Of a stretch of 8,414 bases of DNA, positions 1 through 8,414 are shown one piece after another. Where the stretch lies: positions 1 to 8,414 of the forward strand of contig CANFGS010000042.1 of NCBI GenBank assembly GCA_947446595.1. The letters are read 5' to 3'. The notes beneath the pieces are model-generated. The model made no database searches, was not told the DNA's origin, and saw nothing but the letters and a program-made list of their open reading frames with translations. How positions within the stretch are numbered: the stretch's first letter is position 1; each line of letters begins with the position of its first letter. The position numbers and the translations under genes are program-made. Origin of the DNA: Neisseriaceae bacterium (lineage in GTDB: Bacteria > Pseudomonadota > Gammaproteobacteria > Burkholderiales > UBA11063).

Positions 1-56
1 GAAACCTTCAAACCCCACTGCTCGCAAGAGTGGTGGGGTTTTTTATTTGCGGCGTG
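1..56 (+). repeat. Copy A of the conserved porin post-stop/terminator element; it is cut by the window edge
   Basis: gaaaccttcaaaccccactgctcgcaagagtggtggggtttttt matches 7034-7077 with 3-4 differences. It also matches the reverse complement of 7632-7676. Weaker similarity to copy B continues for ~12 nt past the T-run (9/12). Confidence 0.8.
10..44 (+). terminator. Rho-independent terminator, presumably for a gene upstream of the window
   Basis: The 11-bp stem is ccccactgctc / gagtggtgggg (2 G-U pairs). It has a GCAA (GNRA) tetraloop and is followed by TTTTTT at 39-44. Confidence 0.8.
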
Positions 57-168
57 TACATCATGCATTAACAATTAGCAATATAGAAACTACTGTCACA
101 ACAATAACGGTTGGCGTGTAAATTAACTGTTGCAATATCACTTGCAATTAACCACAGGAGCACACGCA

Positions 169-402
169 ATGACAGACGCACATGACGCACAAAAGCAACT
201 TGAACAATTACTCAAGCAACAAGAAGATTTAGCAGCAAAGATTGATGCACAACGCAAAGCCAGTCGTGATGCTGCACTGGAAACGGTTAAGAATTTGTGC
301 AAAGCGTACGAATTTAGCGCGGCAGATTTGAAAGGTTACATCAAAGCCACACGCACACGCAGCGCAACTAAAAAGGCAACGCCTCGCAAAAGACGCAGCT
401 GA
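169..402 (+). CDS. Small H-NS-family-like protein: N-terminal coiled-coil/oligomerisation region plus a basic tail, with no recognisable C-terminal DNA-binding domain
   Basis: AGGAG at 156-160 lies 8 nt before the ATG at 169 (the ORF track starts at a TTG at 130). The pattern QKQLEQLLKQQEDLAAKIDAQRK...ETVKNLCKAYEFSAADL resembles the N-terminal half of betaproteobacterial H-NS-like proteins. The protein ends in ...KKATPRKRRS, without a TWxGRG-type motif. Confidence 0.6.
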   Translation: MTDAHDAQKQLEQLLKQQEDLAAKIDAQRKASRDAALETVKNLCKAYEFSAADLKGYIKATRTRSATKKATPRKRRS

Positions 403-502
403 ACAAGCAGCCAGCGTAATTAAGCACTGGGCGCATATTGTTTTACAACAGCACCGTCCAGTAACTGCTACTGCCACTTACCGCACACTAACGTCAGCAC
501 AA

Positions 503-1147
503 GTGCAGCGTTTGGAGCGTGTGTGCACACAGTTGTTGCGTGCTGCACATGCACCAGTAGCTGCTGCCAGCATGCGTGCAGTGCTAACGGCAGACGAATA
601 CGACACATACACAAGCCAACTGACAGCACCGCAAACGCACTATGACGTGCTACGTGAGCAGGGCAGACCAGATGCACTAACTGGATACATTGAACTGCTT
701 AGGCGTGCAGACTTTACAAATGCACGTGCAAACGCTGCAGCAAACCGCGTGAACAATTACAGGAATGCACTTAAGTTACGAGAACAAAGTGACCACGAGT
801 ATGAATTGGCGTGTGAATACATGGAAGAACAATTTAGCGTGTGTGACGCAGGCGAACGTGCGCGGTTGGAAGCGTGGTTGGACAGACCGTTTGACTACGG
901 CATTGGTGGCTTAATTAGCATTGACTGCGTGGGTGTTGCACGTGTAATTGGCAGCACCAGCCAATACTGCAGACACAAACAGGAGCGTGCACAACAGCAG
1001 CTGATTTGGCGACGACAGTGTCAGCTAGATGCTCTTGGAAGTGCGGCGTATGACATGTTGTACGAACCAGATGTTGCAGCCAATCCCACCATGAGCCATC
1101 GACTGTGTGCACTACTGGACAACCTGCGCGATGCAGACACCATTTAG
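503..1147 (+). CDS. Hypothetical protein (214 aa from GTG 503; an alternative ATG lies at 572)
   Basis: This is a long ORF with the same GCA/ACA/CAA codon preference as neighbouring island genes. No clear SD precedes either start. I recognise no family. Confidence 0.55.
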   Translation: MQRLERVCTQLLRAAHAPVAAASMRAVLTADEYDTYTSQLTAPQTHYDVLREQGRPDALTGYIELLRRADFTNARANAAANRVNNYRNALKLREQSDHEYELACEYMEEQFSVCDAGERARLEAWLDRPFDYGIGGLISIDCVGVARVIGSTSQYCRHKQERAQQQLIWRRQCQLDALGSAAYDMLYEPDVAANPTMSHRLCALLDNLRDADTI

Positions 1148-1165
1148 CTTGCAACAGCGTACAAA

Positions 1166-1738
1166 TTAAGCCAATTCAACTGCACGGCGCAGCATGTCAT
1201 CATTAGCGTCAATGTACACAGCAGTGGTGCTGATATTGCGGTGTCCCATCAAGCGCATGAGTACACGTATCCCAGTGCCTTGATTGGCTAAATTGGTTGC
1301 AAATGTTCTGCGTCCACTGTGGCTACTGGCACCATCAATGCCCGCGTTCCTGTACAACCAGCGCACATGTCCTGCAAGAGTGTTAGCAGTAAAGCCGCGG
1401 CGTGGCTTTTGTTGTGTGTAAAAAAACGCCCAGTCACCTGCGCGCTGTTTGGTAGTGTCAACGTAGCGTTGTAATTCCTTGCGCAGTCGCTCACTAACAA
1501 ACACCGTGCGTGCATGACAGCGTTTGGTTTGCTCTGCGCGCAGGTGTATCTCGTCACGTACACGTCCTGCGTCGTTAACAACATCAGCCCATGTAAGTGC
1601 AGCGCACTCACCTACACGTAAACCTGCCAAGTGTTGTAGCAATATGATTGCGCGGTTACGTGGTGCGTGCACACGTGTTGCTATGTGGTCTAGTACTCTG
1701 CGCAATTCCTGCGCACTAAATGTTTTTGCTTGTGCCAT
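1166..1738 (-). CDS. Short (190 aa) tyrosine recombinase / phage-integrase-family protein consisting essentially of the catalytic domain
   Basis: AAGGAG (1753-1748, minus strand) lies 9 nt before the ATG at 1738. Catalytic signature: GLRVGE (Arg I), HSGRRTF (H-x-x-R), GHRNISTTAVY (His ... Tyr nucleophile). No N-terminal arm-binding or SAM-like domain fits in 190 aa. Confidence 0.9.
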   Translation of the reverse strand: MAQAKTFSAQELRRVLDHIATRVHAPRNRAIILLQHLAGLRVGECAALTWADVVNDAGRVRDEIHLRAEQTKRCHARTVFVSERLRKELQRYVDTTKQRAGDWAFFYTQQKPRRGFTANTLAGHVRWLYRNAGIDGASSHSGRRTFATNLANQGTGIRVLMRLMGHRNISTTAVYIDANDDMLRRAVELA

Positions 1739-1830
1739 GTGTCAGTGCTCCTTAAAAGTTCACATAAATAAAGCACTAGCAGTATGTTTTCAGCGAGCCA
1801 GTTTGGGCAACCAGTTTGTGCAATATGCGC

Positions 1831-1853
1831 AGGTCTTTGTGTGTCAAAGACTT
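1831..1853 (-). promoter_or_regulatory. Operator-like palindrome overlapping a -35-like TTGACA, upstream of the short recombinase gene
   Basis: aggtctttg-tgtgt-caaagactt has 9-bp arms with 1 mismatch. On the minus strand it contains a perfect TTGACA (1847-1842). The best -10 candidate at 16-nt spacing is weak (TATTGC). Confidence 0.3.
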
Positions 1854-1981
1854 GCCAATTGGTTCACGGCTAATCGTTATTTTGTGTGGAAATATTTAGT
1901 ACTTTCTGTTGGCCGCACTAAATTAAGCCCTACAAGCTGTCAAATTACTAGCCAGCTACCAGACTAGCTGACAGGTGCTAA

Positions 1982-2026
1982 TGACGTGCTTTTGACGTGC
2001 GTTTGACGTGTTTGCGTGCGCGCACG
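1982..2026. promoter_or_regulatory. Iteron cluster: TGACGTG x3 at exact 11-bp phasing, a degenerate 4th copy, and a perfect 12-bp palindrome
   Basis: TGACGTG occurs at 1982, 1993 and 2004, each in a TTTGACGTGC-like unit. TG-CGTGC follows at 2013. CGTGCGCGCACG (2015-2026) is self-complementary. An A/T-rich tract follows at 2040-2105. Confidence 0.6.
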
Positions 2027-2125
2027 AAATGGGTTTTGCACATGACAAAATCAGTGCTGCGAAAAATTTACAAATCAAAATCTATTTGGTGTGGTGATTT
2101 TTTACCTATACCCACCACATTGATA

Positions 2126-2144
2126 GCGAACTTTGCAAGTTCGC
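2126..2144. other. Perfect 8-bp stem / 3-nt loop hairpin
   Basis: The sequence is gcgaactt-tgc-aagttcgc. No T-run follows on either strand, so I do not call it a terminator. Confidence 0.4.
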
Positions 2145-2280
2145 TTGTGCTTTCACAAAACACCTATCGCTCGTCGCTCAGTGTTTTATTCAGCACACTG
2201 TTGTGTTAAATGATTGAATTGCGAACACAACGCAGTTGTGTGAGTGGTATTGGGTTCATTTAGATAGATTAGATTGGACG

Positions 2281-2331
2281 CACGACGGCTATGTGACTTG
2301 GATAAGAAGTCAACATAACCGCCGTGTCGTG
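2281..2331. other. Long bulged palindrome with a 7-nt centre; candidate recombination core site or structured RNA/ssDNA element
   Basis: The left arm is cacgac-ggc-tatgt-gactt and the centre is ggataag. The right arm is aagtc-a-acata-acc-gcc-gt-gtcgtg. All blocks are complementary, with 6 extra nt in the right arm. Confidence 0.4.
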
Positions 2332-2554
2332 TAGTTTCATTTGAGTGAGTTGAGTCGTTACTACACGCCTGTAACAGAGTTGTGTGGAGACAGATGTATT
2401 GAAACTCCCAGCCGTGTGTTGCACGTACTGCTCTGCGGCATCACCATTTGTCACACGCTGTTACAGCAACGTGTGTAGTGCGGGGTCATTAGCCGTCATA
2501 TTACAACCCGCGTTTGTCCACTGTTAACGTGTTGGTTATCACGTGTGTATTTGA

Positions 2555-2938
2555 TTAGGTGCCTGATTTTGGTAGTAGCTTGTGTGCTGCGAACAGTTGC
2601 CTGTTTACTTTGGTTGCTATGTTTAGGACTGGATACGCGGATTCTGGTTTGAGTCGTGCGCACAGTTTGGTGTTACCAACGCGACGCTGGAAGTCGCGCA
2701 GGGTTTTGGATTGTTCAGTTGTTAATAGATTTGGATGTTGTGTGAGTAGAGTGTGTGCCGTAAGTTGTGCCTTTAGCAGTTTGGGATTTAGGTTGTTAAA
2801 TGTTGCCGTATTAAAGCCTGAGTTTTTAAGCCATTTATCAGTAGCCAACTTGGATTGGTTTTGCTTGCGCAGGATGCCAAACTGGGCATGTGTAAGTTTG
2901 TCTTTGAGTTGTTTCATATAGTTATTTAGCAAGACCAC
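2555..2938 (-). CDS. Hypothetical protein (127 aa from GTG 2938, or 120 aa from ATG 2917)
   Basis: The K/Q/L/T-rich ORF has island-typical codon usage. The overlapping plus-strand ORF (2559-2921) is Cys/Ser/Arg-rich, as expected for an antisense artefact. No convincing SD is present. Confidence 0.55.
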   Translation of the reverse strand: MVLLNNYMKQLKDKLTHAQFGILRKQNQSKLATDKWLKNSGFNTATFNNLNPKLLKAQLTAHTLLTQHPNLLTTEQSKTLRDFQRRVGNTKLCARLKPESAYPVLNIATKVNRQLFAAHKLLPKSGT

Positions 2939-3077
2939 ATAAAAGCAGATAAATTTCTTGGCAGATTTATGGCTTAAAACAGGCAGTTATGAGTGCAATA
3001 ACTGCTGCATGTGCATGATTTGGGCGAATTAGTTGGTAGTGTGCGGGTGTGAATAAATACATAAAAGGAGACCACAA

Positions 3078-3695
3078 GTGCGATTACAGGAATTTGCCAG
3101 TGCAGAAGAACAAATGGCGCTGTGGCGTTTGGTAAGTGACAGTGTGTGGGCAAGTATTGGCCAACAAGCACACCTTGAACGGCAAGAGCGTGCTGCAAAA
3201 GCTGCGCAGGCTAAAACTAAACGCAAACGTGGAAATAGAGCAGGTAGTAAATCAAGCAGCACACCAGTGCCAATTAAGATGCCAAAGCAACCAAATAACA
3301 AAGTTGCAACAGCAAATGCACCAACTGCACCAACTGCAGCCAACACTGCGCCAGTTGGTAATGCTGTGGCTAATGCAAGCACGAGTGGTATGTACAAGAA
3401 TGGCAGCAACACGAATGCAGCAAACAAAATAGCAGCCAATTCAAATGTTGCAATCACGCCAACAACAGCCGCACAACCAAGTCCTGCATTTAGTCCAGCA
3501 CATCCTGCAACACCAACAGTTCCCGCGCCAGCAAATTACAGTACACAAAAAGCGTCTAGCGGGTCACAAGACGCATTTAATTGGCGAAATACACCTACAC
3601 ACAAAAAATTACCAGCCGCCACCGACAGGCATAGTGCAAATGCTTACCGCACACAAACAGTGCATCCAAGTGCACGTGGTGCAATAACCCGATAA
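3078..3695 (+). CDS. Hypothetical protein: short structured N-terminus, a K/R-rich linker, then a long A/T/N/P-rich low-complexity region
   Basis: AAAGGAG (GGAG at 3067-3070) lies 7 nt before the GTG at 3078. Codon choice (GCA, ACA, CAA, CCA) matches the other island genes. I recognise no family. Confidence 0.6.
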   Translation: MRLQEFASAEEQMALWRLVSDSVWASIGQQAHLERQERAAKAAQAKTKRKRGNRAGSKSSSTPVPIKMPKQPNNKVATANAPTAPTAANTAPVGNAVANASTSGMYKNGSNTNAANKIAANSNVAITPTTAAQPSPAFSPAHPATPTVPAPANYSTQKASSGSQDAFNWRNTPTHKKLPAATDRHSANAYRTQTVHPSARGAITR

Positions 3696-3785
3696 ATTGG
3701 CGGTGTAAACATAGAGTGTGGTTGCCCAAGTGTGCGGGCTGACAATAAAGTTTGTGCTGTAACGACAACACAACGGAGTAATTAA

Positions 3786-4238
3786 ATGTCAACAGCAACA
3801 CTTGCAACGCTCTCAGCGTTGAAATTAACAGCAGCACGTAAACCTCGTGCACTACCTGAGGCTGTCAAACGCCGTAACAAACTGCTCAACAAATTAAAAG
3901 AGCAACGCGAACTTGCACTGGCGCAAAGCGAAGGACGTACATATGTGCCCAAACGTCTGCGTACCGTGCGTGACTTGGATGGCAACAGAGTAGTGCGTGA
4001 AATGCCTGTGCGTATCAAGCCTTGGTGGTGGACAGGCGAGAAGAACGAGACACTGCTGAGCGTGTTCTACGGTAGCAAGACGTTGGAGTTGGGCAAAGGT
4101 AAGACAGCAGTTGAAATTGCCAACCCACGCGAACTGGTCAATGTGCTGGATGTGTTGATTACTGCAACGCAAAACGCAGAATTGGATGCACAGATTGATG
4201 CTGCCAGCAATAAGTTACGCGATAGCTTTAAGAAATAG
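3786..4238 (+). CDS. Conserved-looking hypothetical protein (150 aa)
   Basis: GGAG at 3775-3778 lies 7 nt before the ATG at 3786. The motifs RRNKLL..L.EQ...A, IKPWWW, YGSK.LELGKGKTAVE and ELDAQID recall an uncharacterised proteobacterial family often seen near integrases. That link is from memory only and I cannot name the family reliably. Confidence 0.7.
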   Translation: MSTATLATLSALKLTAARKPRALPEAVKRRNKLLNKLKEQRELALAQSEGRTYVPKRLRTVRDLDGNRVVREMPVRIKPWWWTGEKNETLLSVFYGSKTLELGKGKTAVEIANPRELVNVLDVLITATQNAELDAQIDAASNKLRDSFKK

Positions 4239-4277
4239 CTAATGGATAGCAAAGACTAGACAGCAGAGCATTAACGC

Positions 4278-5594
4278 TTAGGTGCGTTTGCTCTGCAGCA
4301 TGGCAATATTTTGCTCACCCGTTACCGTACTGGCGTAGTGGTTGTTGATAACTTCTACGCTGGTACGTGCATTTCGCGCCAATGTCACCAAGTCAATTCC
4401 TTGACCGTACAAGAGCCTAAATGTAATGGCGCTGTGGCGCAGACTGTAAAGGCTTCGCGGATTACCATGCGGATTGAGCTTTAATCCAGTGTGCTGTAAC
4501 ACCCAGTTAAACATATAACTGAGCACGTTCATTGCGTAGCGACGGTTGGGAATGTCTGGCAAGAACAGGTAATCATTTGTACCAATACGCTTGCGTGGTG
4601 TTTGGTACTGGCATATTTGACGGTAAATGCGCACAGCAGGCAGCAGCGTAACAATGGGCGCAGCGTGCAACTTGGTCTCAGGCAATGTCAATCGTAAATA
4701 TGTCTGCTTGCTGTGTACGATTTCCACATGACGGTGGCGTAGCTTAACCAAGTCACCTGGACGGATAAAGCTATTGACCATAAACCCAATCGCCCAAGCA
4801 ACATCTGGTGGCATACGATTGTCGTTGTAGCACTGTTGTAAGCGTTTACGCATGTCTTTGCGTGTGTCTGGATGCGTTGTGCCACGCAGTGCACGTGCAG
4901 CACGTAGCAATTGCCAATATTCTGTAGGTGTAAATGCGCCGCGTGACGTGCTGCGAACTTTGATTTTGGGGACATCTGGCACATGTTCAATTAAACCTGT
5001 GCGTTGTGCATGCGTCAGCACCTTTCGCACAATTACAAGGTAATGGCTAACTGTGGTTGTGCTGAACTTGGCGCTGAGTGTCTGTGCAAATGCCAGTAAC
5101 TTTTGGTAAGTTAATTCACCAATCAACTTGGTGCCAAATGCAGGCAATATGTGTGCATCCAAACGGTTACGAAACATTCGTAAACTGCCTGCACCATATT
5201 CACCGCGTTCAACACGTGCTTGCTCGTTTGCATAAACTTGTGCTGCAACGGCACCAAATGTCATTTGTGCTGGTGTATTGCTGTCATTTCCAGTCGTACC
5301 CTGCAGACTTGCATGCTGGGAATACTTGACCAACAAGTCTTCATAAAACCAACGTGCAAATCTCTGTGCCAACACTAGATTACATGTTTTGGTACTTTGC
5401 TTGTGTGTGCGTCCTGCATGCCAGCAACGCACTTGCCAATATCTACTGGCTGCTATTTTGTAGATAACCAATTTGTTTGGGTAATTTGGTACTGCGGTGA
5501 TGCTTGATGGTATTGGTACGGTGCGTGTGCGTTTAATCAAACGGTCGTTGGCTGCATCAATTTGGTAGTTGGCAACTGTTGTCATCATGCTCAC
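4278..5594 (-). CDS. Tyrosine integrase, 438 aa (phage-integrase family)
   Basis: The C-terminal catalytic domain carries FIRPGD (Arg I), LYSLRHSAITF and LARNARTSVEVINNHY (Tyr nucleophile). The N-terminal ~230 aa is long enough for arm- and core-binding domains. The start is GTG 5594 or ATG 5588/5585, and the SD is weak. Confidence 0.9.
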   Translation of the reverse strand: MSMMTTVANYQIDAANDRLIKRTRTVPIPSSITAVPNYPNKLVIYKIAASRYWQVRCWHAGRTHKQSTKTCNLVLAQRFARWFYEDLLVKYSQHASLQGTTGNDSNTPAQMTFGAVAAQVYANEQARVERGEYGAGSLRMFRNRLDAHILPAFGTKLIGELTYQKLLAFAQTLSAKFSTTTVSHYLVIVRKVLTHAQRTGLIEHVPDVPKIKVRSTSRGAFTPTEYWQLLRAARALRGTTHPDTRKDMRKRLQQCYNDNRMPPDVAWAIGFMVNSFIRPGDLVKLRHRHVEIVHSKQTYLRLTLPETKLHAAPIVTLLPAVRIYRQICQYQTPRKRIGTNDYLFLPDIPNRRYAMNVLSYMFNWVLQHTGLKLNPHGNPRSLYSLRHSAITFRLLYGQGIDLVTLARNARTSVEVINNHYASTVTGEQNIAMLQSKRT

Positions 5595-5807
5595 AGCTTA
5601 AAGTAGCACGCCGCAAAGGTCTAGCAAATAAGTTTTGTGTGTGCAAATTACAGCGTGCGATATCACCTTCAGTCAGCCGCTAAACAACCGTTCCTGCCGT
5701 GCACAAAATAGACTAATTAGTGTTGTTATTTGTGCGTGACATGTAGCGCACTTCAAACCGTACAACTTGTTGCAATTACAAATTGGTGCTGTCAATGTAG
5801 CACCTTG

Positions 5808-5849
5808 CAAATACCTTTTAGCAACTAGCTGCCGCAGGCAAATGTGCAA
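5808..5849 (+). repeat. Conserved leader at the integrase/porin junction (module 1)
   Basis: caaatacc..ctgcc..ggcaaatgtgcaa aligns by hand with the reverse complement of 7817-7855 (caaatacg..ctgcc..ggtaaatgtgcta). About 29-30 of ~42 columns match, with 3 small gaps. Confidence 0.45.
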
Positions 5850-5860
5850 CCCTCGTTGCA

Positions 5861-7000
5861 TTGGCTGCACTCGTAAGCGTGACAGCGTTCGCACAAACAT
5901 CTGTAAAACTGTTGGGAAACATTGACGCTGGATATCAATCCAACGATTACAAAGGAAACAAGATTTCCGGTATCAACAACAACGGCTCTGCTACTTCACA
6001 AATCGACATTGAAGTTATTGAAGATTTGGGCGGCGGTTTGAAAGCTAAAGTTTGGTTGGAATCAGACATCAACCCAGTTGCTGCTCAAGCTAACACTGGT
6101 TATGCCTCAAGTATCAAATCAGGTACTGACGCAGGCGGCGGTACTTGGTTGAACTCTGAGCAAAAAGTTGGCTTGGCTGGCAATTTTGGTGAAGTTGCTG
6201 TTGGTGTTGTCAACAACAAAACATTAGCTGCCAACGGTACAGGTCAACCTTTTGGTACTGCCATTGGTTCTGGCTACGGTAGCATCATCAAGGCTTCTGC
6301 TGGCGTTGCTGCAAGCACTGCTTCAGTTGTTCGCTTTGACAACTCTGTTCGTTACGACACACCCGTTGTTAATGGCTTCTCTGGTTCGGTTTACTACGTG
6401 GCAAAACAAGCTGTCAGTAACGGCAAAGCTAACTACAGCACAACATTGGGCGCGTTCAGCAAGGCTGGTATCAATGAATATTCAGTAAACTACTCAAACG
6501 GTCCAGTGAATGCAACCTATGTCATTCAACAAGCTGATTACAACGGCGTAGTGACTCCTGGTGCTGTTGACTACAACACAGCAACTGCTGGTGTACCTAC
6601 TGCTGTCGCTGGAACAGCTTTGACAACAAAGTCTTCTTTGAAGACTCTGTCTGCTAGCTACGCTTGGAACGCATTTACCTTTGGTGCGACAACTCAATCA
6701 TTGAAAGATGATGCATCTACAAATGCAGTTAACACCAAAGCCACCTTGGGTAGTGTTAAGTACACAATGGGCGCAACAATGCTCGGCCTAACATCAGGTT
6801 CTTTGACAAACAGTGTTACCAACACAAAGTCAACATTCTTGGGTTACGGTGCTCAGTATCAATTGAGCAAAACGACAAAAGTCTACGCTCAGTTTGAAAC
6901 TCTGAATGACGACGGCGGTACAGTAGCAGCAGTTACTGGTTACACCGAAGTTGGTACAAAGCGTACTCGCTCAGGTTTAGGTGTTAACGTCGCCTTCTAA
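5861..7000 (+). CDS. Outer-membrane general-diffusion porin (Gram-negative porin family); the 5' end appears incomplete
   Basis: It has a signal-peptide C-region ...ALVSVTAFA|QTS and a mature N-terminus SVKLLGNIDAGY. It has a G/N/T/S/Y-rich beta-barrel composition and a C-terminal ...GLGVNVAF with terminal Phe. Codon usage looks like a highly expressed gene (GGT/GCT/ACT). The only in-frame start after the TAG at 5819-5821 is TTG 5861, which has no SD. Confidence 0.85.
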   Translation: MAALVSVTAFAQTSVKLLGNIDAGYQSNDYKGNKISGINNNGSATSQIDIEVIEDLGGGLKAKVWLESDINPVAAQANTGYASSIKSGTDAGGGTWLNSEQKVGLAGNFGEVAVGVVNNKTLAANGTGQPFGTAIGSGYGSIIKASAGVAASTASVVRFDNSVRYDTPVVNGFSGSVYYVAKQAVSNGKANYSTTLGAFSKAGINEYSVNYSNGPVNATYVIQQADYNGVVTPGAVDYNTATAGVPTAVAGTALTTKSSLKTLSASYAWNAFTFGATTQSLKDDASTNAVNTKATLGSVKYTMGATMLGLTSGSLTNSVTNTKSTFLGYGAQYQLSKTTKVYAQFETLNDDGGTVAAVTGYTEVGTKRTRSGLGVNVAF

Positions 7001-7080
7001 TCCCCGCGCTGGCTAAACCAGTTAAGGATTTAGAAAACCTTGAAACCCCATTGCTCGCAAGAGTGGTGGGGTTTTTTAAT
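6994..7080 (+). repeat. Copy B of the porin post-stop element (last two codons, small hairpin, terminator)
   Basis: By hand alignment about 80 of 88 positions are identical to the reverse complement of 7629-7716. Its 3' half matches 1-47. Confidence 0.9.
7043..7077 (+). terminator. Rho-independent terminator of the porin gene
   Basis: The stem is ccccattgctc / gagtggtgggg with a GCAA loop, followed by TTTTTT at 7072-7077. Confidence 0.85.
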
Positions 7081-7101
7081 TGTGGGGTGGTGTTTGCTGT
7101 T

Positions 7102-7539
7102 GTGAAAGAAAGGATAACGATTGTTGGCACTATTTATGGCTTTTCCGATGCTAAGGCTATAAACGAAATTTATTGCGACACACATTGCTCCCAATACCCA
7201 ACGGTGCGCCCTTTGACAAAAATTCGTACACAAATTGAATTGGATGATGGCACAGAGGTTTGGGTCGATGGTGTTCCAAAATTTTGCGATGAAGACGACA
7301 TCCTAGATATTGAAACTGAAGAAGTTGATCTTGACAGCCTGTGTGCAGACATCTCGCAAGCGATTAATTCTGGTTGGATTGAAATTGGCTTAATAGCCAA
7401 TGAGAAGCTTAGATATGCTTATTACCAAACGCTGAAAATCTATTCCAATGGACAAGGCGTAAGAACATACGCCTTGACTGGACAGCAATTCCCGCAAGGA
7501 GTTACAACTGAATTCACTAAGTTGTTTCAGTCTATTTGA
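7102..7539 (+). CDS. Hypothetical small acidic protein; the start is uncertain (GTG 7102 proposed)
   Basis: The ORF is open from 7051, but 7051-7080 is terminator repeat. The frame has no ATG codon at all. The AT-rich codon usage differs from the island. A clean terminator follows, and I recognise no family. Confidence 0.5.
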   Translation: MKERITIVGTIYGFSDAKAINEIYCDTHCSQYPTVRPLTKIRTQIELDDGTEVWVDGVPKFCDEDDILDIETEEVDLDSLCADISQAINSGWIEIGLIANEKLRYAYYQTLKIYSNGQGVRTYALTGQQFPQGVTTEFTKLFQSI

Positions 7540-7558
7540 CAGTCTTTTATTAATTTTT

Positions 7559-7582
7559 AACCCGCCTTAGTGCGGGTTTTTT
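7559..7582 (+). terminator. Rho-independent terminator of the 7102-7539 ORF
   Basis: The stem is aacccgc / gcgggtt with a cttagt loop. The T-run is at 7577-7582. Confidence 0.8.
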
Positions 7583-7594
7583 ATTGCCTATATC

Positions 7595-7611
7595 TGTCGT
7601 GTAACACGACA
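7595..7611. other. Perfect 8-bp-arm palindrome TGTCGTGT-A-ACACGACA
   Basis: Read directly from the sequence. It lies between two convergent terminators, and its function is unknown. Confidence 0.35.
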
Positions 7612-7628
7612 CCACAAACTACTCGCCC

Positions 7629-7716
7629 ATTAAAAAACCCCACCACTCTTGCGAGCATTGGGGTTTAAAGGTTTTCTAAATCCTCTAACTGGCTAAGCCA
7701 GCAGGGGGATTAGAAG
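7629..7716 (-). repeat. Copy C of the porin post-stop element, inverted
   Basis: The reverse complement is cttctaatccccctgctggcttagccagttagaggatttagaaaacctttaaaccccaatgctcgcaagagtggtggggttttttaat. This aligns with 6994-7080. Confidence 0.9.
7632..7666 (-). terminator. Rho-independent terminator (minus strand) behind the porin remnant
   Basis: It is the same hairpin as copies A and B, with one A.G mismatch in the stem. On the minus strand a T6 run follows (plus-strand A6 at 7632-7637). Confidence 0.7.
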
Positions 7717-7817
7717 TTCTTGCGCAAAGCAATAGAAGTGATCTTCTGTGTCTCGCCCAACATGTTGACCATCTGACCGCCGTAGGCGTTGTTGCCTTGA
7801 TAGAACATGCCATAGCT
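7710..7817 (-). pseudogene. Porin gene remnant: the last ~35 codons plus the stop
   Basis: The minus-strand translation is ...SYGMFYQGNNAYGGQMVNMLGETQKITSIALRKNF*. This aligns with the final strands of the intact porin (Y..F...N..GG ... L/G..x.F). A near-identical porin 3' UTR follows. The rest of the 84-aa ORF (7710-7964) is antisense to the integrase fragment. Confidence 0.75.
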
Positions 7818-8414
7818 AGCACATTTACCGATTGGCAGAAAGATAAACGTATTTGGATCAAAAGCAACTACCACCAAATGCCCTACGAAATGACAAGCTT
7901 GATTCGGTTCATGGTGTACACCTTTGTTCGGCCAGGTGATATTCGTCAAATTCAAAACAAACACATAGAAATCATCAAAGGCCAGTACAACTATTTACGG
8001 TTAAACCTGCCAGAGGTAAAGCGGCACAAGGCTGCGACCGTTAGCTTGCCACCAGCAGTCAATATTTACAAGCATCTAATGGCTTATCAAACGTCGCGCG
8101 GCTATGGCAAACCAGATGACTATGTGTTCTTTCCAGAAGAAAAAAACCGCCGTTTGATGCTCGACATCATCGGTTGGTTGTTCAATTGGATATTGAAAGA
8201 TTTAGATTTCAAATTAGGGCCACATGGTGTCGAGCGCACTTTGTATAGCTTGCGTCACACGGCTATTACTTTTAGGTTGATTTATGGTGGCAATATCGAT
8301 TTGTTAACCCTTGCCCGAAATGCCCGTACATCGGTGGAGATGATTGAAAAGTTTTATGCCAGTACCTTGTCTGCGGAGATGAATATTGCACTTTTACATG
8401 GTAAACGCCGCTAA
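7797..8414 (+). pseudogene. 5'-truncated paralog of the 438-aa integrase (catalytic domain only); its stop codon is the last triplet of the window
   Basis: From about nt 7866 the translation aligns with residues ~256-438 of the 4278-5594 product. By hand count 89 of 168 residues are identical from FMV onward, including FVRPGD, LYSLRHTAITF and TLARNARTSVEMI..FY. The N-terminal ~250 codons are absent. The ORF opens only with a TTG at 7797, and no SD is present. Confidence 0.7.
7817..7855 (-). repeat. Conserved leader at the integrase/porin junction (module 2)
   Basis: See 5808-5849. In both copies GGY AAA TGT GCW (G-K-C-A) is in the porin reading frame. Confidence 0.45.

What the first reader, a model, noticed from the sequence alone, without database searches (positions are those of the whole stretch)
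4278..8414. Two mirror-image integrase-porin modules, one intact and one decayed
- **Module 1:** the integrase (4278-5594, minus strand) diverges from the porin (5861-7000, plus strand), which ends in the 3' element at 6994-7080.
- **Module 2:** this has the same layout, inverted. It consists of the 3' element (7716-7629), the last 35 porin codons (7817-7710, minus strand), a ~40-bp leader (7855-7817) and an integrase paralog reading away from it (from ~7866, plus strand).
- **Similarity:** the integrases are about half identical at the protein level. The 3' elements match at about 80/88 nt. The leaders are ~70% identical by hand alignment.
- **Implication:** the same integrase family sitting head-to-head with a porin twice argues for a functional or mechanistic link. 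Either the porin 5' end is the integration target, or the porin is dedicated cargo. Chance adjacency looks unlikely.
Basis: partly seen in the sequence, partly recalled or inferred. Interest (0 to 1): 0.7.

Follow-up and report, generated by a model that had tools for sequence, protein, structure and literature searches.

The report
Recombinase-driven porin gene swapping locus
Freshwater bacteria change which outer-membrane porin they make by cutting and rejoining DNA at one 12-13-base site inside the porin's signal-peptide codons; this window shows a resident flip-switch of that kind, now broken by a deletion and invaded by a mobile element that uses the same site.

Summary
The integrase-porin linkage is real and mechanistic, but the two modules are different things.

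- **Shared site:** both integrases sit next to the core AACCCTCGTTGC (window 5848-5859), which encodes porin signal-peptide codons 3-7.
- **Module 1:** this is the right-hand junction (attR) of a ~7-kb integrative element. It runs from a porin lying off the left edge, through its terminator (2-56) and cargo, to int1 (4278-5594). The insertion left porin B (5849-7000) without a start codon.
- **Module 2:** this is the remnant of a resident invertase (int2) and its silent partner porin C. A 2.1-kb deletion destroyed both.
- **Empty site:** contig L104 carries promoter-ATG-porin B, a small ORF, full-length start-less porin C and full int2. It is 95-96% identical to the window.
- **Inversion seen in nature:** contigs L107 and L108 carry the same locus with the internal 3.2 kb inverted at 99.87% identity. 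The exchange is confined to 13 nt, and porin C is then fused to ATG-AAA-AAA.
- **Family-wide pattern:** 54 of 60 integrase homologues have a divergent porin, and all 65 integrase-adjacent divergent porins (partial ones on short contigs included) lack a start.

The "leader" is int2 coding sequence. The 3' element is a family-wide porin 3'UTR. I found no prior description.

The parts
2..56 (+). 3' UTR and terminator of an upstream porin (porin A, off the left edge of the window). This porin is the one carried by the integrative element. Terminator hairpin at 10-41.
   Evidence: Direct repeat of 7035-7089 at 91%. In related contigs the identical cargo is preceded by complete or partial porin genes.
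57..4277 (.). Element cargo: 77-aa basic protein (169-402 +), 214-aa protein (503-1147 +), 190-aa Xer/FimB-sized tyrosine recombinase (1166-1738 -), ORF-poor stretch with 11-bp iterons (1975-2013), 127-aa ORF (2555-2938 -), 205-aa low-complexity protein (3078-3695 +), DUF6641 protein (3786-4238 +).
   Evidence: ORFs. Pfam, PHROG and NCBIfam scans. The same gene set is 96.7% identical over 5.9 kb in L110, and is also found in L001-L007 and L109-L118.
4278..5594 (-). int1, the tyrosine integrase of the mobile element (438 aa).
   Evidence: PHROG integrase at 8.8e-27 and Phage_int_M. 88 homologous loci fetched. Alignment A1 has invariant RPGD..K..LRH..Y positions.
5595..5847 (+). Element-side arm of the attR junction, between the int1 start and the core. 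Contains three same-strand GTAGCRC motifs (5603, 5743, 5797), which are candidate arm-type sites.
   Evidence: This sequence is conserved with the element in L001, L110 and L113 but absent from the empty site L104. Motif count. No promoter-like site on the + strand.
5848..5859 (+). Recombination core AACCCTCGTTGC, which encodes signal-peptide codons ~3-7 (..T L V A).
   Evidence: Homology to the empty site L104 starts exactly here (L104 324 = window 5848). The same junction occurs in all int1-type loci. The inversion exchange is confined to AAACCCTCGTTGC.
5849..7000 (+). Porin B, the displaced resident porin. It is start-less and presumably silent.
   Evidence: Porin_4 at 2.7e-34. The frame has no ATG or GTG after the stop at 5819-5821. 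An intact MKK-initiated version, 98% identical (P0121), sits behind the promoter in L104.
6994..7104 (+). Porin B 3' UTR: stem-loop at about 7008-7023 plus an intrinsic terminator at 7042-7075.
   Evidence: In a 50-sequence alignment, 14 of 18 base pairs show compensatory changes.
7102..7539 (+). Small resident ORF (ORF162 in the window, ORF130 in L104) between the two convergent porins, with its own terminator at 7559-7578. It lies inside the invertible segment.
   Evidence: A homologous ORF is present in L104 and inverted in L107 and L108. No family hit.
7605..7716 (-). Porin C 3' UTR, an inverted copy of the 3' element.
7710..7820 (-). Porin C remnant: the last ~36 codons plus the stop.
   Evidence: Full-length porin C is in L104 (2181-3449, -).
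7811..7816 (.). Deletion junction with a few filler bases. 2101 bp present in L104 (2282-4382) are missing here: most of porin C, its core, the spacer and int2 codons 1-~236.
   Evidence: blastn of L104 against the window, and junction sequences.
7817..8414 (+). int2 remnant: the C-terminal ~198 codons of the resident invertase-type tyrosine recombinase, with its stop at 8412-8414.
   Evidence: 49% identical to int1. 96.5% identical to L104 4383-4977. 79% identical to the resident integrases of L011 and L019. Full-length relatives sit between a start-less porin and host genes in L096 and L097.

Best explanation
The window is a porin expression-switch locus of a freshwater Burkholderiales bacterium.

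**Resident system (shown)**
- One promoter, 5'UTR and ATG-AAA-AA(A) are followed by the core AAACCCTCGTTGC.
- Two convergent porin bodies lie between this core and an inverted copy of it.
- A tyrosine recombinase gene (int2) sits next to the inverted copy.
- Recombination between the two cores inverts the ~3.2-kb segment. This fuses one or the other porin body in frame to the promoter and start codon. The other porin is left start-less beside int2. That int2 is the catalyst is inferred from adjacency.

**Mobile element (shown by comparison)**
- Elements of about 5-11 kb carry a related integrase (int1), a ~250-bp arm, the same core, and a start-less porin with its 3'UTR, plus variable cargo.
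- Integration at a core puts the element's porin behind the host promoter and ATG. It pushes the resident porin, now start-less, next to int1.

**In this window**
- Such an element has integrated at the core of porin B (5848). Its own porin lies off the left edge.
- A 2.1-kb deletion removed most of porin C and the N-terminal half of int2, which locks the resident switch.

**Inferred purpose**
- Rapid and horizontally extensible variation of the major porin, most plausibly to escape phages or other agents that use the porin as a receptor.
For: **Shown directly**
- **Linkage:** 54 of 60 integrase homologues have a divergent porin within 700 bp. All 65 integrase-adjacent divergent porins (54 plus 11 partial ones on short contigs) lack an MKK start.
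- **Junction position:** every int1-type junction falls at AACCCTCGTTGC. Intact porins read ATGAAAAAAACCCTCGTTGC.
- **Complete elements:** they are flanked by direct copies of the core. The far porin is intact and lies behind the same host promoter next to coq7 in L021, L025, L032, L042, L052, L057 and L109.
- **Empty site:** L104 matches window 5848-7810 at 95.4% and 7820-8414 at 96.5%. Homology begins exactly at the core. L104 carries the full porin C and full int2 that the window lacks.
- **Inversion:** L107 and L108 equal L104 with 3182 bp inverted at 99.87% identity and both flanks unchanged. Porin C is then MKK-fused (P0169, 100% identical) and porin B is start-less beside int2. The exchange lies within 13 nt.
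- **Element mobility:** the same element (96.7% over 5.9 kb) abuts a different porin and different host genes in L110. It occurs in tandem in L113 and L114. It is integrated at the silent core beside int2-type genes in L011 and L019.
- **Larger invertible segment:** the 9-kb host segment between cores occurs in both orientations among genomes (L025, L097 and L011 against L024 and L019).
- **int2-type is resident:** it sits between a start-less porin and host ABC-transporter genes in L096 and L097.

**Inferred**
- Catalysis by the adjacent integrases.
- Silence of start-less porins. No in-frame start and no promoter-like site were found.
- The anti-phage or receptor-variation role.
Against: - No experiment links int1 or int2 to the rearrangements.
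- No excised circular (attP) form was found.
- For the L097-type locus, only one orientation was seen in four further contigs.
- The left end of the element (attL) is outside the window. It is known only from sister contigs (L109).
- A TTG at 5861 could in principle start a truncated signal peptide, so complete silence of porin B is not proven.
- The elements have no recognisable transfer or replication genes, so how they move between cells is unknown.
- All comparison sequences are metagenome contigs or MAGs.
Confidence: 0.85

Rival explanations
1. General (RecA-dependent) homologous recombination or gene conversion between the conserved porin 5' (signal-peptide) and 3' (UTR) flanks produces the rearrangements. 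The integrases are passengers of islands that happen to sit there.
For: - Porin signal-peptide regions and 3'UTRs are conserved repeats.
- In L097 the two 5' regions are identical over more than 100 nt.
- The same cargo is found behind at least 7 different porins, with the break near the terminator. This needs a second, possibly homologous, exchange.
Against: - In L104 against L107 the exchange is confined to 13 identical nt, and the sequence diverges immediately on both sides. That is too short for efficient RecA recombination.
- Element junctions fall at the same nucleotide in dozens of loci with unrelated porins.
- Integrase adjacency to the core is near-universal, at 54 of 60.
Confidence: 0.07
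2. Local duplication followed by decay. The two modules are paralogous copies of one integrase-porin unit with no site-specific function.
For: - The integrases are 49% identical.
- The 3' elements are 86% identical.
- One module is truncated.
Against: - The 3' element is family-wide, not module-specific.
- Porin B and porin C are unrelated in sequence beyond family level.
- The empty-site and inverted-state contigs and the family statistics are not explained by duplication.
Confidence: 0.02
3. The element is a defective prophage or phage satellite. Its porin is ordinary lysogenic-conversion cargo expressed from its own promoter, and insertion next to a host porin is incidental.
For: - int1 matches phage integrase profiles.
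- DUF6641 and the 77-aa protein hit PHROGs of unknown function.
Against: - There are no relatives in 2.9 million IMG/VR contigs and no match in 50,697 phage genomes.
- No structural or replication genes were recognised.
- Element-borne porins carry no start of their own. At the expression site they are fused to the host ATG.
Confidence: 0.04
4. The alternative arrangements are metagenome assembly chimeras formed at repeated sequences.
For: - Many contigs break near the core: 12 end 310-400 bp upstream of the integrase start.
- The core and the 3'UTR are repeats.
Against: - The shared core is only 12-13 nt, far below assembly k-mer sizes.
- State B was assembled independently in two samples (L107, L108), and state A in others (L104, and the intact porin B in L105 and L106).
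- The same architectures recur in NCBI MAGs and in many projects.
Confidence: 0.02

Closest known systems
Mycoplasma vsa / vsp / vpma surface-lipoprotein switches (HvsR, Mbr, Xer1 tyrosine recombinases)
   Same: - A single expression site, silent gene copies, and an adjacent tyrosine recombinase.
- Site-specific inversions place a silent gene behind the unique promoter.
- In M. pulmonis vsa the expression site also supplies the RBS and the 5' coding region (PMC2268961, introduction).
- Xer1 was shown genetically to be required (PMC2268961 abstract).
   Different: - Here the protein is the general porin of a Gram-negative bacterium.
- The site is 12-13 nt at signal-peptide codons 3-7.
- The integrases are large, arm-domain (P4/lambda-like) types.
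- The same core is also the attachment site of mobile elements that import new alleles.
Dichelobacter nodosus Omp1 multiple site-specific inversion system (Moses et al. 1995, cited as ref. 23 in PMC5903667)
   Same: Phase and antigenic variation of an outer-membrane protein family by site-specific DNA inversion.
   Different: - The details come from my own knowledge, not from a test here. As I recall, the crossover sites resemble those of Hin/Din serine invertases.
- No mobile element delivering new alleles is described.
- The organism, recombinase class and site are all different.
Integrons
   Same: - A recombinase gene lies divergent from an insertion site.
- Promoter-less genes are captured at that site and expressed from a resident promoter.
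- Arrays form in which downstream cassettes are silent.
   Different: - The recombinases are not IntI. The integron-integrase NCBIfam models hit only the small cargo recombinase, far below cut-off, and do not hit int1.
- The exchange is at a 5' coding-sequence core, not at a folded attC.
- Each mobile unit brings its own integrase and cargo.
- Fusion is in frame, at codon 3.
Genomic islands that integrate into the 5' end of a gene (dusA-specific integrases; a paper on dusA-targeting islands is listed, and the details here are from my own knowledge)
   Same: A tyrosine integrase targets the 5' coding end of a conserved host gene, and the element replaces part of that gene.
   Different: - In dusA islands, the element restores the same gene by supplying a new 5' end.
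- Here the element supplies a different, divergent gene body. That body takes over the host's promoter and start, and the old body is orphaned.
Campylobacter fetus sap S-layer switching (from my own knowledge)
   Same: A single promoter is moved among 5'-conserved surface-protein gene cassettes by inversion. This resembles layout 3 seen in L072 and L075.
   Different: It is reported to be largely RecA-dependent and uses long conserved 5' regions, with no dedicated adjacent integrase.

Membership tests
Tyrosine recombinase (phage integrase) superfamily | Sequence match to integrase catalytic-domain profiles | tested here: met
   - int1: PHROG phrog_1 integrase at 8.8e-27 and Phage_int_M at 6e-7.
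- int2 fragment: PF00589 at 6.9e-4, below the Pfam cut-off, but 49% identical to int1.
- int2-type relatives carry PF13102 and PF00589.
Tyrosine recombinase (phage integrase) superfamily | Conserved catalytic R..K..(H)xxR..Y residues | tested here: inconclusive
   In alignment A1, R278 (RPGD), K308, R386-H387 (LRH) and Y420 (HYAS) are invariant. Assigning them to catalytic roles rests on motif resemblance only.
Expression-site inversion switch (shufflon-like, Mycoplasma vsa/vpma type) | One promoter and start, with alternative 5'-truncated gene bodies | tested here: met
   L104, L107, L097 and L066 each have one MKK-initiated porin behind the promoter and one start-less porin.
Expression-site inversion switch (shufflon-like, Mycoplasma vsa/vpma type) | Inverted repeat crossover sites bounding the invertible segment | tested here: met
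   AAACCCTCGTTGC is present in inverted orientation at both ends in L104. In L097 the inverted repeats exceed 100 nt.
Expression-site inversion switch (shufflon-like, Mycoplasma vsa/vpma type) | Both orientations exist in natural populations, with reciprocal junctions | tested here: met
   L104 against L107 and L108: 3182 bp inverted at 99.87% identity, flanks unchanged, junctions reciprocal.
Expression-site inversion switch (shufflon-like, Mycoplasma vsa/vpma type) | The adjacent recombinase is required for switching | not testable with these tools
   This needs genetics or biochemistry. In the window itself int2 is truncated, so the switch is predicted to be locked.
Integrative mobile element (genomic island with tyrosine integrase) | Integrase gene at one end, with direct repeats (attL/attR) flanking the element | tested here: met
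   L024, L025, L032 and L044 have direct core repeats at both ends. The window holds attR only. The attL of the same element family is in L109.
Integrative mobile element (genomic island with tyrosine integrase) | An unoccupied target site in related genomes | tested here: met
   L104, and the L097 expression site.
Integrative mobile element (genomic island with tyrosine integrase) | The same element in different genomic contexts | tested here: met
   Window against L110 (different displaced porin and host genes) and L113/L114 (tandem). Insertion at the silent core in L011 and L019.
Integrative mobile element (genomic island with tyrosine integrase) | An excised circular intermediate or attP | not tested
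   No contig with an attP configuration was identified. A dedicated read-level search could not be run.
Integron | IntI-type integrase | tested here: not met
   The NCBIfam integron-integrase models do not hit int1. They hit only the 190-aa cargo recombinase, at 47 bits against a cut-off of 265.
Integron | Cassettes bounded by attC sites at which recombination occurs | tested here: not met
   The observed exchanges are at the 5' coding core. The 3' hairpin element is a conserved 3'UTR and terminator.
Prophage / phage satellite | Relatives in viral collections, or recognisable viral structural or replication genes | tested here: not met
   No relative in IMG/VR, no match in phage genomes, and only integrase or unknown-function PHROG hits.

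The most novel reading that the evidence does not exclude
The major-porin locus of abundant freshwater Burkholderiales (Limnohabitans, Polynucleobacter and relatives) is an open, integron-like exchange platform.
- A single 12-13-nt core in the signal-peptide codons is shared by resident invertases and by a large family of mobile integrases.
- Cells can therefore flip between stored porins and also import foreign porin bodies that are switched on by in-frame fusion at codon 3.
- Elements may integrate at the 5' core and resolve at the conserved 3'UTR. They would then leave their porin behind and depart with the host's. This would explain why one cargo type is found behind at least 7 different porins.
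Probability: 0.45. Interest if true: 0.9.

Novelty: new variant of a known kind. Interest (0 to 1): 0.82.

Why it matters
- **Why porins matter:** they are the main gateway for nutrients and a prime receptor for phages and other agents acting at the cell surface.
- **What this adds:** a dedicated, widespread recombinase family switches and horizontally replaces the major porin. The last protein search found 2519 relatives at E <= 1e-40, and the metagenome scan found 483 loci. This would be a previously unrecognised route of surface variation in some of the most abundant freshwater bacteria.
- **Ecological consequence:** it offers a concrete mechanism for strain-level microdiversity and for phage-host dynamics in lakes.
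- **Possible tool:** the pair of integrases shares a very short, defined site and makes in-frame fusions. It could serve for cassette exchange.
- **Annotation consequence:** integrase-adjacent 'porin' genes called from internal TTG codons are probably silent cassettes.

Tried and rejected
- **Leader similarity:** alignment with a shuffle control is marginal, and the stretch is int2 coding sequence. Rejected.
- **Exact-protein look-ups:** int1, porin B from its TTG, the int2 fragment and ORF162 found nothing. Progress came only through homologue searches.
- **Viral origin:** the phage-genome megablast and the IMG/VR scan were both negative.
- **Rfam and tRNA:** there is no family for the 3' element, only sub-threshold terminator-like hits at 7517-7621. 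There is no tRNA target.
- **Cargo function:** Pfam, PADLOC, PHROG and NCBIfam gave almost nothing. The hits were an AAA ATPase, an esterase and serine or tyrosine recombinases.
- **Second orientation at the L097 locus:** contigs L098-L101 all show the same state.
- **L079 against L080:** the integrase orientation differs while the flank-porin linkage is kept. At 72-74% identity this is too diverged to interpret. It may reflect recombination between the inverted 3'UTRs.
- **Early models dropped:**
  - Integration at the porin terminator, with direct repeats 2-56 and 7035-7089 acting as att sites. This was dropped once the 3'UTR proved family-wide and the core junction was defined.
  - Module 2 as a second element junction. 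This was replaced by the resident-invertase reading after L096, L097 and L104.
- **Literature:** eight full-text searches found no description of this system.

Full report
**1. What is in the window**

The ORF list and family scans give the following layout.

| Coordinates | Feature |
|---|---|
| 2-56 | terminator-type element |
| 169-402 (+) | 77-aa basic protein |
| 503-1147 (+) | 214-aa protein |
| 1166-1738 (-) | 190-aa Xer/FimB-sized tyrosine recombinase |
| 3078-3695 (+) | low-complexity 205-aa protein |
| 3786-4238 (+) | DUF6641 protein |
| 4278-5594 (-) | int1, 438 aa |
| 5861-7000 (+) | Porin_4 porin (as listed) |
| 7051-7539 (+) | small ORF |
| 7710-7964 (-) | 84-aa ORF |
| 7797-8414 (+) | 205-aa ORF, 49% identical to int1 residues 238-437 |

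- The porin frame is open from the stop at 5819-5821. It reads ..GKCATLVALAALVSVTAFAQ with no ATG or GTG.
- The 3' elements are an inverted repeat (about 6994-7104 against 7605-7716). There is a third, direct copy at 2-56.

**2.

- The 'leader' (7817-7855) is coding sequence of the second integrase. The peptide TFTDWQKDKRIWIKSNYHQMP aligns with full-length relatives in L011, L019 and L104.
- Read on the other strand, the N-terminal 48 residues of the 84-aa minus-strand ORF are antisense integrase.
- The leader's similarity to module 1 is marginal (score 13 against 8.4 +/- 1.5 in shuffles, with 8 of 500 reaching it).
- The last 36 codons at 7710-7820 are a porin C-terminus.
- int2 is therefore only a C-terminal half. 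Module 2 is a deletion product.

**3. The proposed test: neighbours of integrase homologues**

- A genome scan gave 8 loci in Limnohabitans, Polynucleobacter and other Burkholderiales MAGs.
- A metagenome scan found 483 relatives, of which the best 80 were kept.
- I mapped these with locally built porin and integrase HMMs:
  - 60 integrase genes have an intact N-terminus and at least 1.3 kb upstream.
  - 54 of them have a divergent porin within 700 bp.
  - 5 of the other 6 have a porin in another linked layout. In L089 none was detected.
- All 65 integrase-adjacent divergent porins (54 plus 11 partial ones on short contigs) lack an MKK-type start. The single regex hit was a false positive.
- Twelve contigs end 310-400 bp upstream of the integrase start, just past the junction.

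**4. The junction**

- In all int1-type loci the porin reading frame begins at AACCCTCGTTGC (T-L-V-A). Upstream is element-specific sequence.
- Intact porins read ATGAAAAAAACCCTCGTTGC.
- A more distant integrase subgroup (about 50-60% identity) joins a few codons further in, at ..GC(A/C)(T/C)TGGCTGC (A-L-A-A).

**5. Integrative elements**

- Many loci hold a second porin 5-9 kb beyond the integrase, in the same orientation. That porin is intact.
- In L021, L025, L032, L042, L052 and L057 it lies behind a conserved 5'UTR and promoter next to the host genes coq7 and osmC.
- The architecture is: coq7 <- P-ATGAAAAA | core - porin E - 3'UTR - cargo - int(-) - arm | core - porin H (start-less).
- Direct repeats begin exactly at the core.
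- For the window's own element family:
  - L109 shows the left end: coq7, promoter, ATG, core, a 424-aa porin, 3'UTR, then cargo 97.5% identical to window 11-1260.
  - L110 shows the same element (96.7% over 5.9 kb) abutting a different displaced porin and different host genes.
  - L113 and L114 show tandem copies.
- Elements also sit at the silent core beside int2-type genes in L011 and L019.

**6. The resident switch**

- int2-type integrases (79% identical to the window fragment) are chromosomal residents.
- In L096 (an NCBI MAG) and L097, a start-less porin and the integrase lie between a BioY/CbiQ/ABC cluster and an amino-acid ABC transporter, with no cargo.
- In L097 the promoter-linked porin lies 9.6 kb away in inverted orientation, with more than 100 nt of identical 5' sequence.
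- The intervening host genes occur in both orientations relative to the promoter among genomes.
- Other layouts in the family also point to inversion:
  - inverted cores around [porin - int - porin] in L063 and L066;
  - inverted cores around [int - promoter - ATG] between divergent porins in L072 and L075.

**7. Direct evidence for this very locus**

- A search with porin B found P0121, 98% identical and seven residues longer (MKKTLVA...).
- Its contig L104 reads: promoter - ATGAAAAA | AACCCTCGTTGC - porin B - ORF130 - porin C (full length, start-less, minus strand) - core - int2 (434 aa).
- L104 324-2281 matches window 5848-7810 at 95.4%. L104 4383-4977 matches window 7820-8414 at 96.5%.
- The window therefore equals L104 plus two changes:
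  - the int1 element inserted exactly at the core;
  - loss of L104 2282-4382, with a few filler bases at 7811-7816.
- A search with porin C found P0169, 100% identical with MKK added.
- Its contigs L107 and L108 come from two other samples. They are L104 with the internal 3182 bp inverted at 99.87% identity and both flanks unchanged.
- The four junctions are reciprocal, and the exchange lies within AAACCCTCGTTGC.
- A 13-nt exchange window, divergent on both sides, points to conservative site-specific recombination rather than RecA.

**8. The 3' element**

- All 79 distinct porins of this family whose downstream sequence was available carry the same ~90-nt 3'UTR: TTCTAATCCCC, a short stem-loop, AAGGATTTAAAAG, then an intrinsic terminator.
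- In a 50-sequence alignment, 14 of 18 predicted pairs show compensatory changes.
- No Rfam family matches.
- Its similarity between modules is therefore not evidence of module duplication.
- The same cargo is preceded by at least 7 different porins, and identity begins just after the terminator. Some second exchange near the 3'UTR must therefore occur. An attractive but untested idea is integration at the 5' core followed by resolution at the 3'UTR, which would swap porins between element and host.

**9. How it most likely works**

- **Shown:**
  - the architectures;
  - the precise core;
  - the empty, occupied and inverted states;
  - the start-less status of integrase-adjacent porins.
- **Inferred:**
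  - int2 catalyses inversion, and int1 catalyses integration and excision;
  - both have an N-terminal arm-type domain motif (..KLV[IV]YKI.AS.YWQVR..);
  - the int1-core spacer holds three GTAGCRC repeats;
  - start-less porins are silent, with no promoter-like site on the + strand;
  - the benefit is receptor variation.
- **In this window:**
  - the resident switch is predicted to be locked, because int2 is truncated and porin C is destroyed;
  - porin B is orphaned behind int1;
  - the expressed porin, if any, is the element's, off the left edge.

**10. Comparison with known systems**

- The logic matches the Mycoplasma vsa, vsp and vpma expression-site switches run by adjacent tyrosine recombinases (PMC2268961).
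- It also recalls Omp1 inversion in D. nodosus (Moses et al. 1995, cited in PMC5903667).
- Capture of promoter-less genes recalls integrons, but the integrase type and the site do not fit.
- Integration into a gene's 5' end recalls dusA islands.
- New here:
  - the target is the general porin of Burkholderiales;
  - the core is tiny and lies inside coding sequence;
  - mobile elements use the same core to install foreign porin bodies by in-frame fusion at codon 3.
- Eight full-text searches found no description of this.

**11. Verdict**

- Novelty: a new variant of a known kind.
- Interest: high.

Noticed in passing
window 2-56; L002, L004, L109, L111-L117 upstream of the 77-aa gene: Near-identical element cargo (the 77-aa protein is 100% identical) is preceded by at least 7 different porin C-termini. 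DNA identity starts just after the porin terminator. This implies a second exchange point at or near the conserved 3'UTR, and possibly porin swapping between element and host.
   Followed up: partly
window 1166-1738 (-): The cargo includes a 190-aa catalytic-domain-only tyrosine recombinase, similar in size to Xer and FimB/FimE (PF00589 at 2e-28). Homologues (47-49% identical) or a serine resolvase occupy the same position in other elements. Its substrate is unknown.
   Followed up: partly
window 1975-2013, within the ORF-poor stretch 1739-2554: Three direct repeats spaced 11 bp apart (GTGCTnnTGACGTGCKT), resembling iterons or operator arrays. They lie in about 800 bp with no convincing ORF.
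   Followed up: no
window 5603, 5743, 5797 (+): Three same-strand GTAGCRC motifs fall within the 253-bp spacer between int1 and the core, out of 5 in the whole window. Other elements carry their own repeats there (GTTGTACACCG...CGTACAAC). These are candidate arm-type integrase binding sites.
   Followed up: partly
window 3786-4238 (+); also L008-L012, L019, L021, L025, L052, L057: A DUF6641 gene (PHROG 31551, unknown function) lies tail-to-tail with the int1-type gene in these loci. It is a candidate directionality factor or regulator.
   Followed up: no
window 6994-7104 and 7605-7716; alignment A2: The porin 3'UTR is conserved at sequence level across genera whose porin proteins share only 26-41% identity. 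It has a covarying stem-loop upstream of the terminator and no Rfam family. It may be a regulatory RNA element in its own right.
   Followed up: partly
window 3078-3695 (+); L009 6318-6791 and 10614-11078; L019 14772-15227; L021 13685-14131: A protein with a conserved N-terminus (MRLxEF..EE...L..LV...) and a Pro/Ala/Thr/Gln-rich tail recurs in the elements. No family hit.
   Followed up: no
L025 16262-19395; L009 1429-4700: A conserved pair of large cargo proteins (about 610-655 aa and 433-440 aa) has no Pfam or PADLOC hit and occurs in two different elements. They could be an uncharacterised accessory or defence module.
   Followed up: partly
L079 against L080; L063 and L066: In layouts where the integrase lies between two convergent porins, the inverted 3'UTRs flank the integrase gene. 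Integrase orientation relative to the flank and porin differs between related contigs. This suggests that inversion also occurs between the 3'UTR repeats.
   Followed up: partly
L096 5877-7208; window 5861: Gene callers start integrase-adjacent porins at an internal TTG in the signal peptide. Public annotations of these 'porins' therefore probably describe silent cassettes.
   Followed up: no
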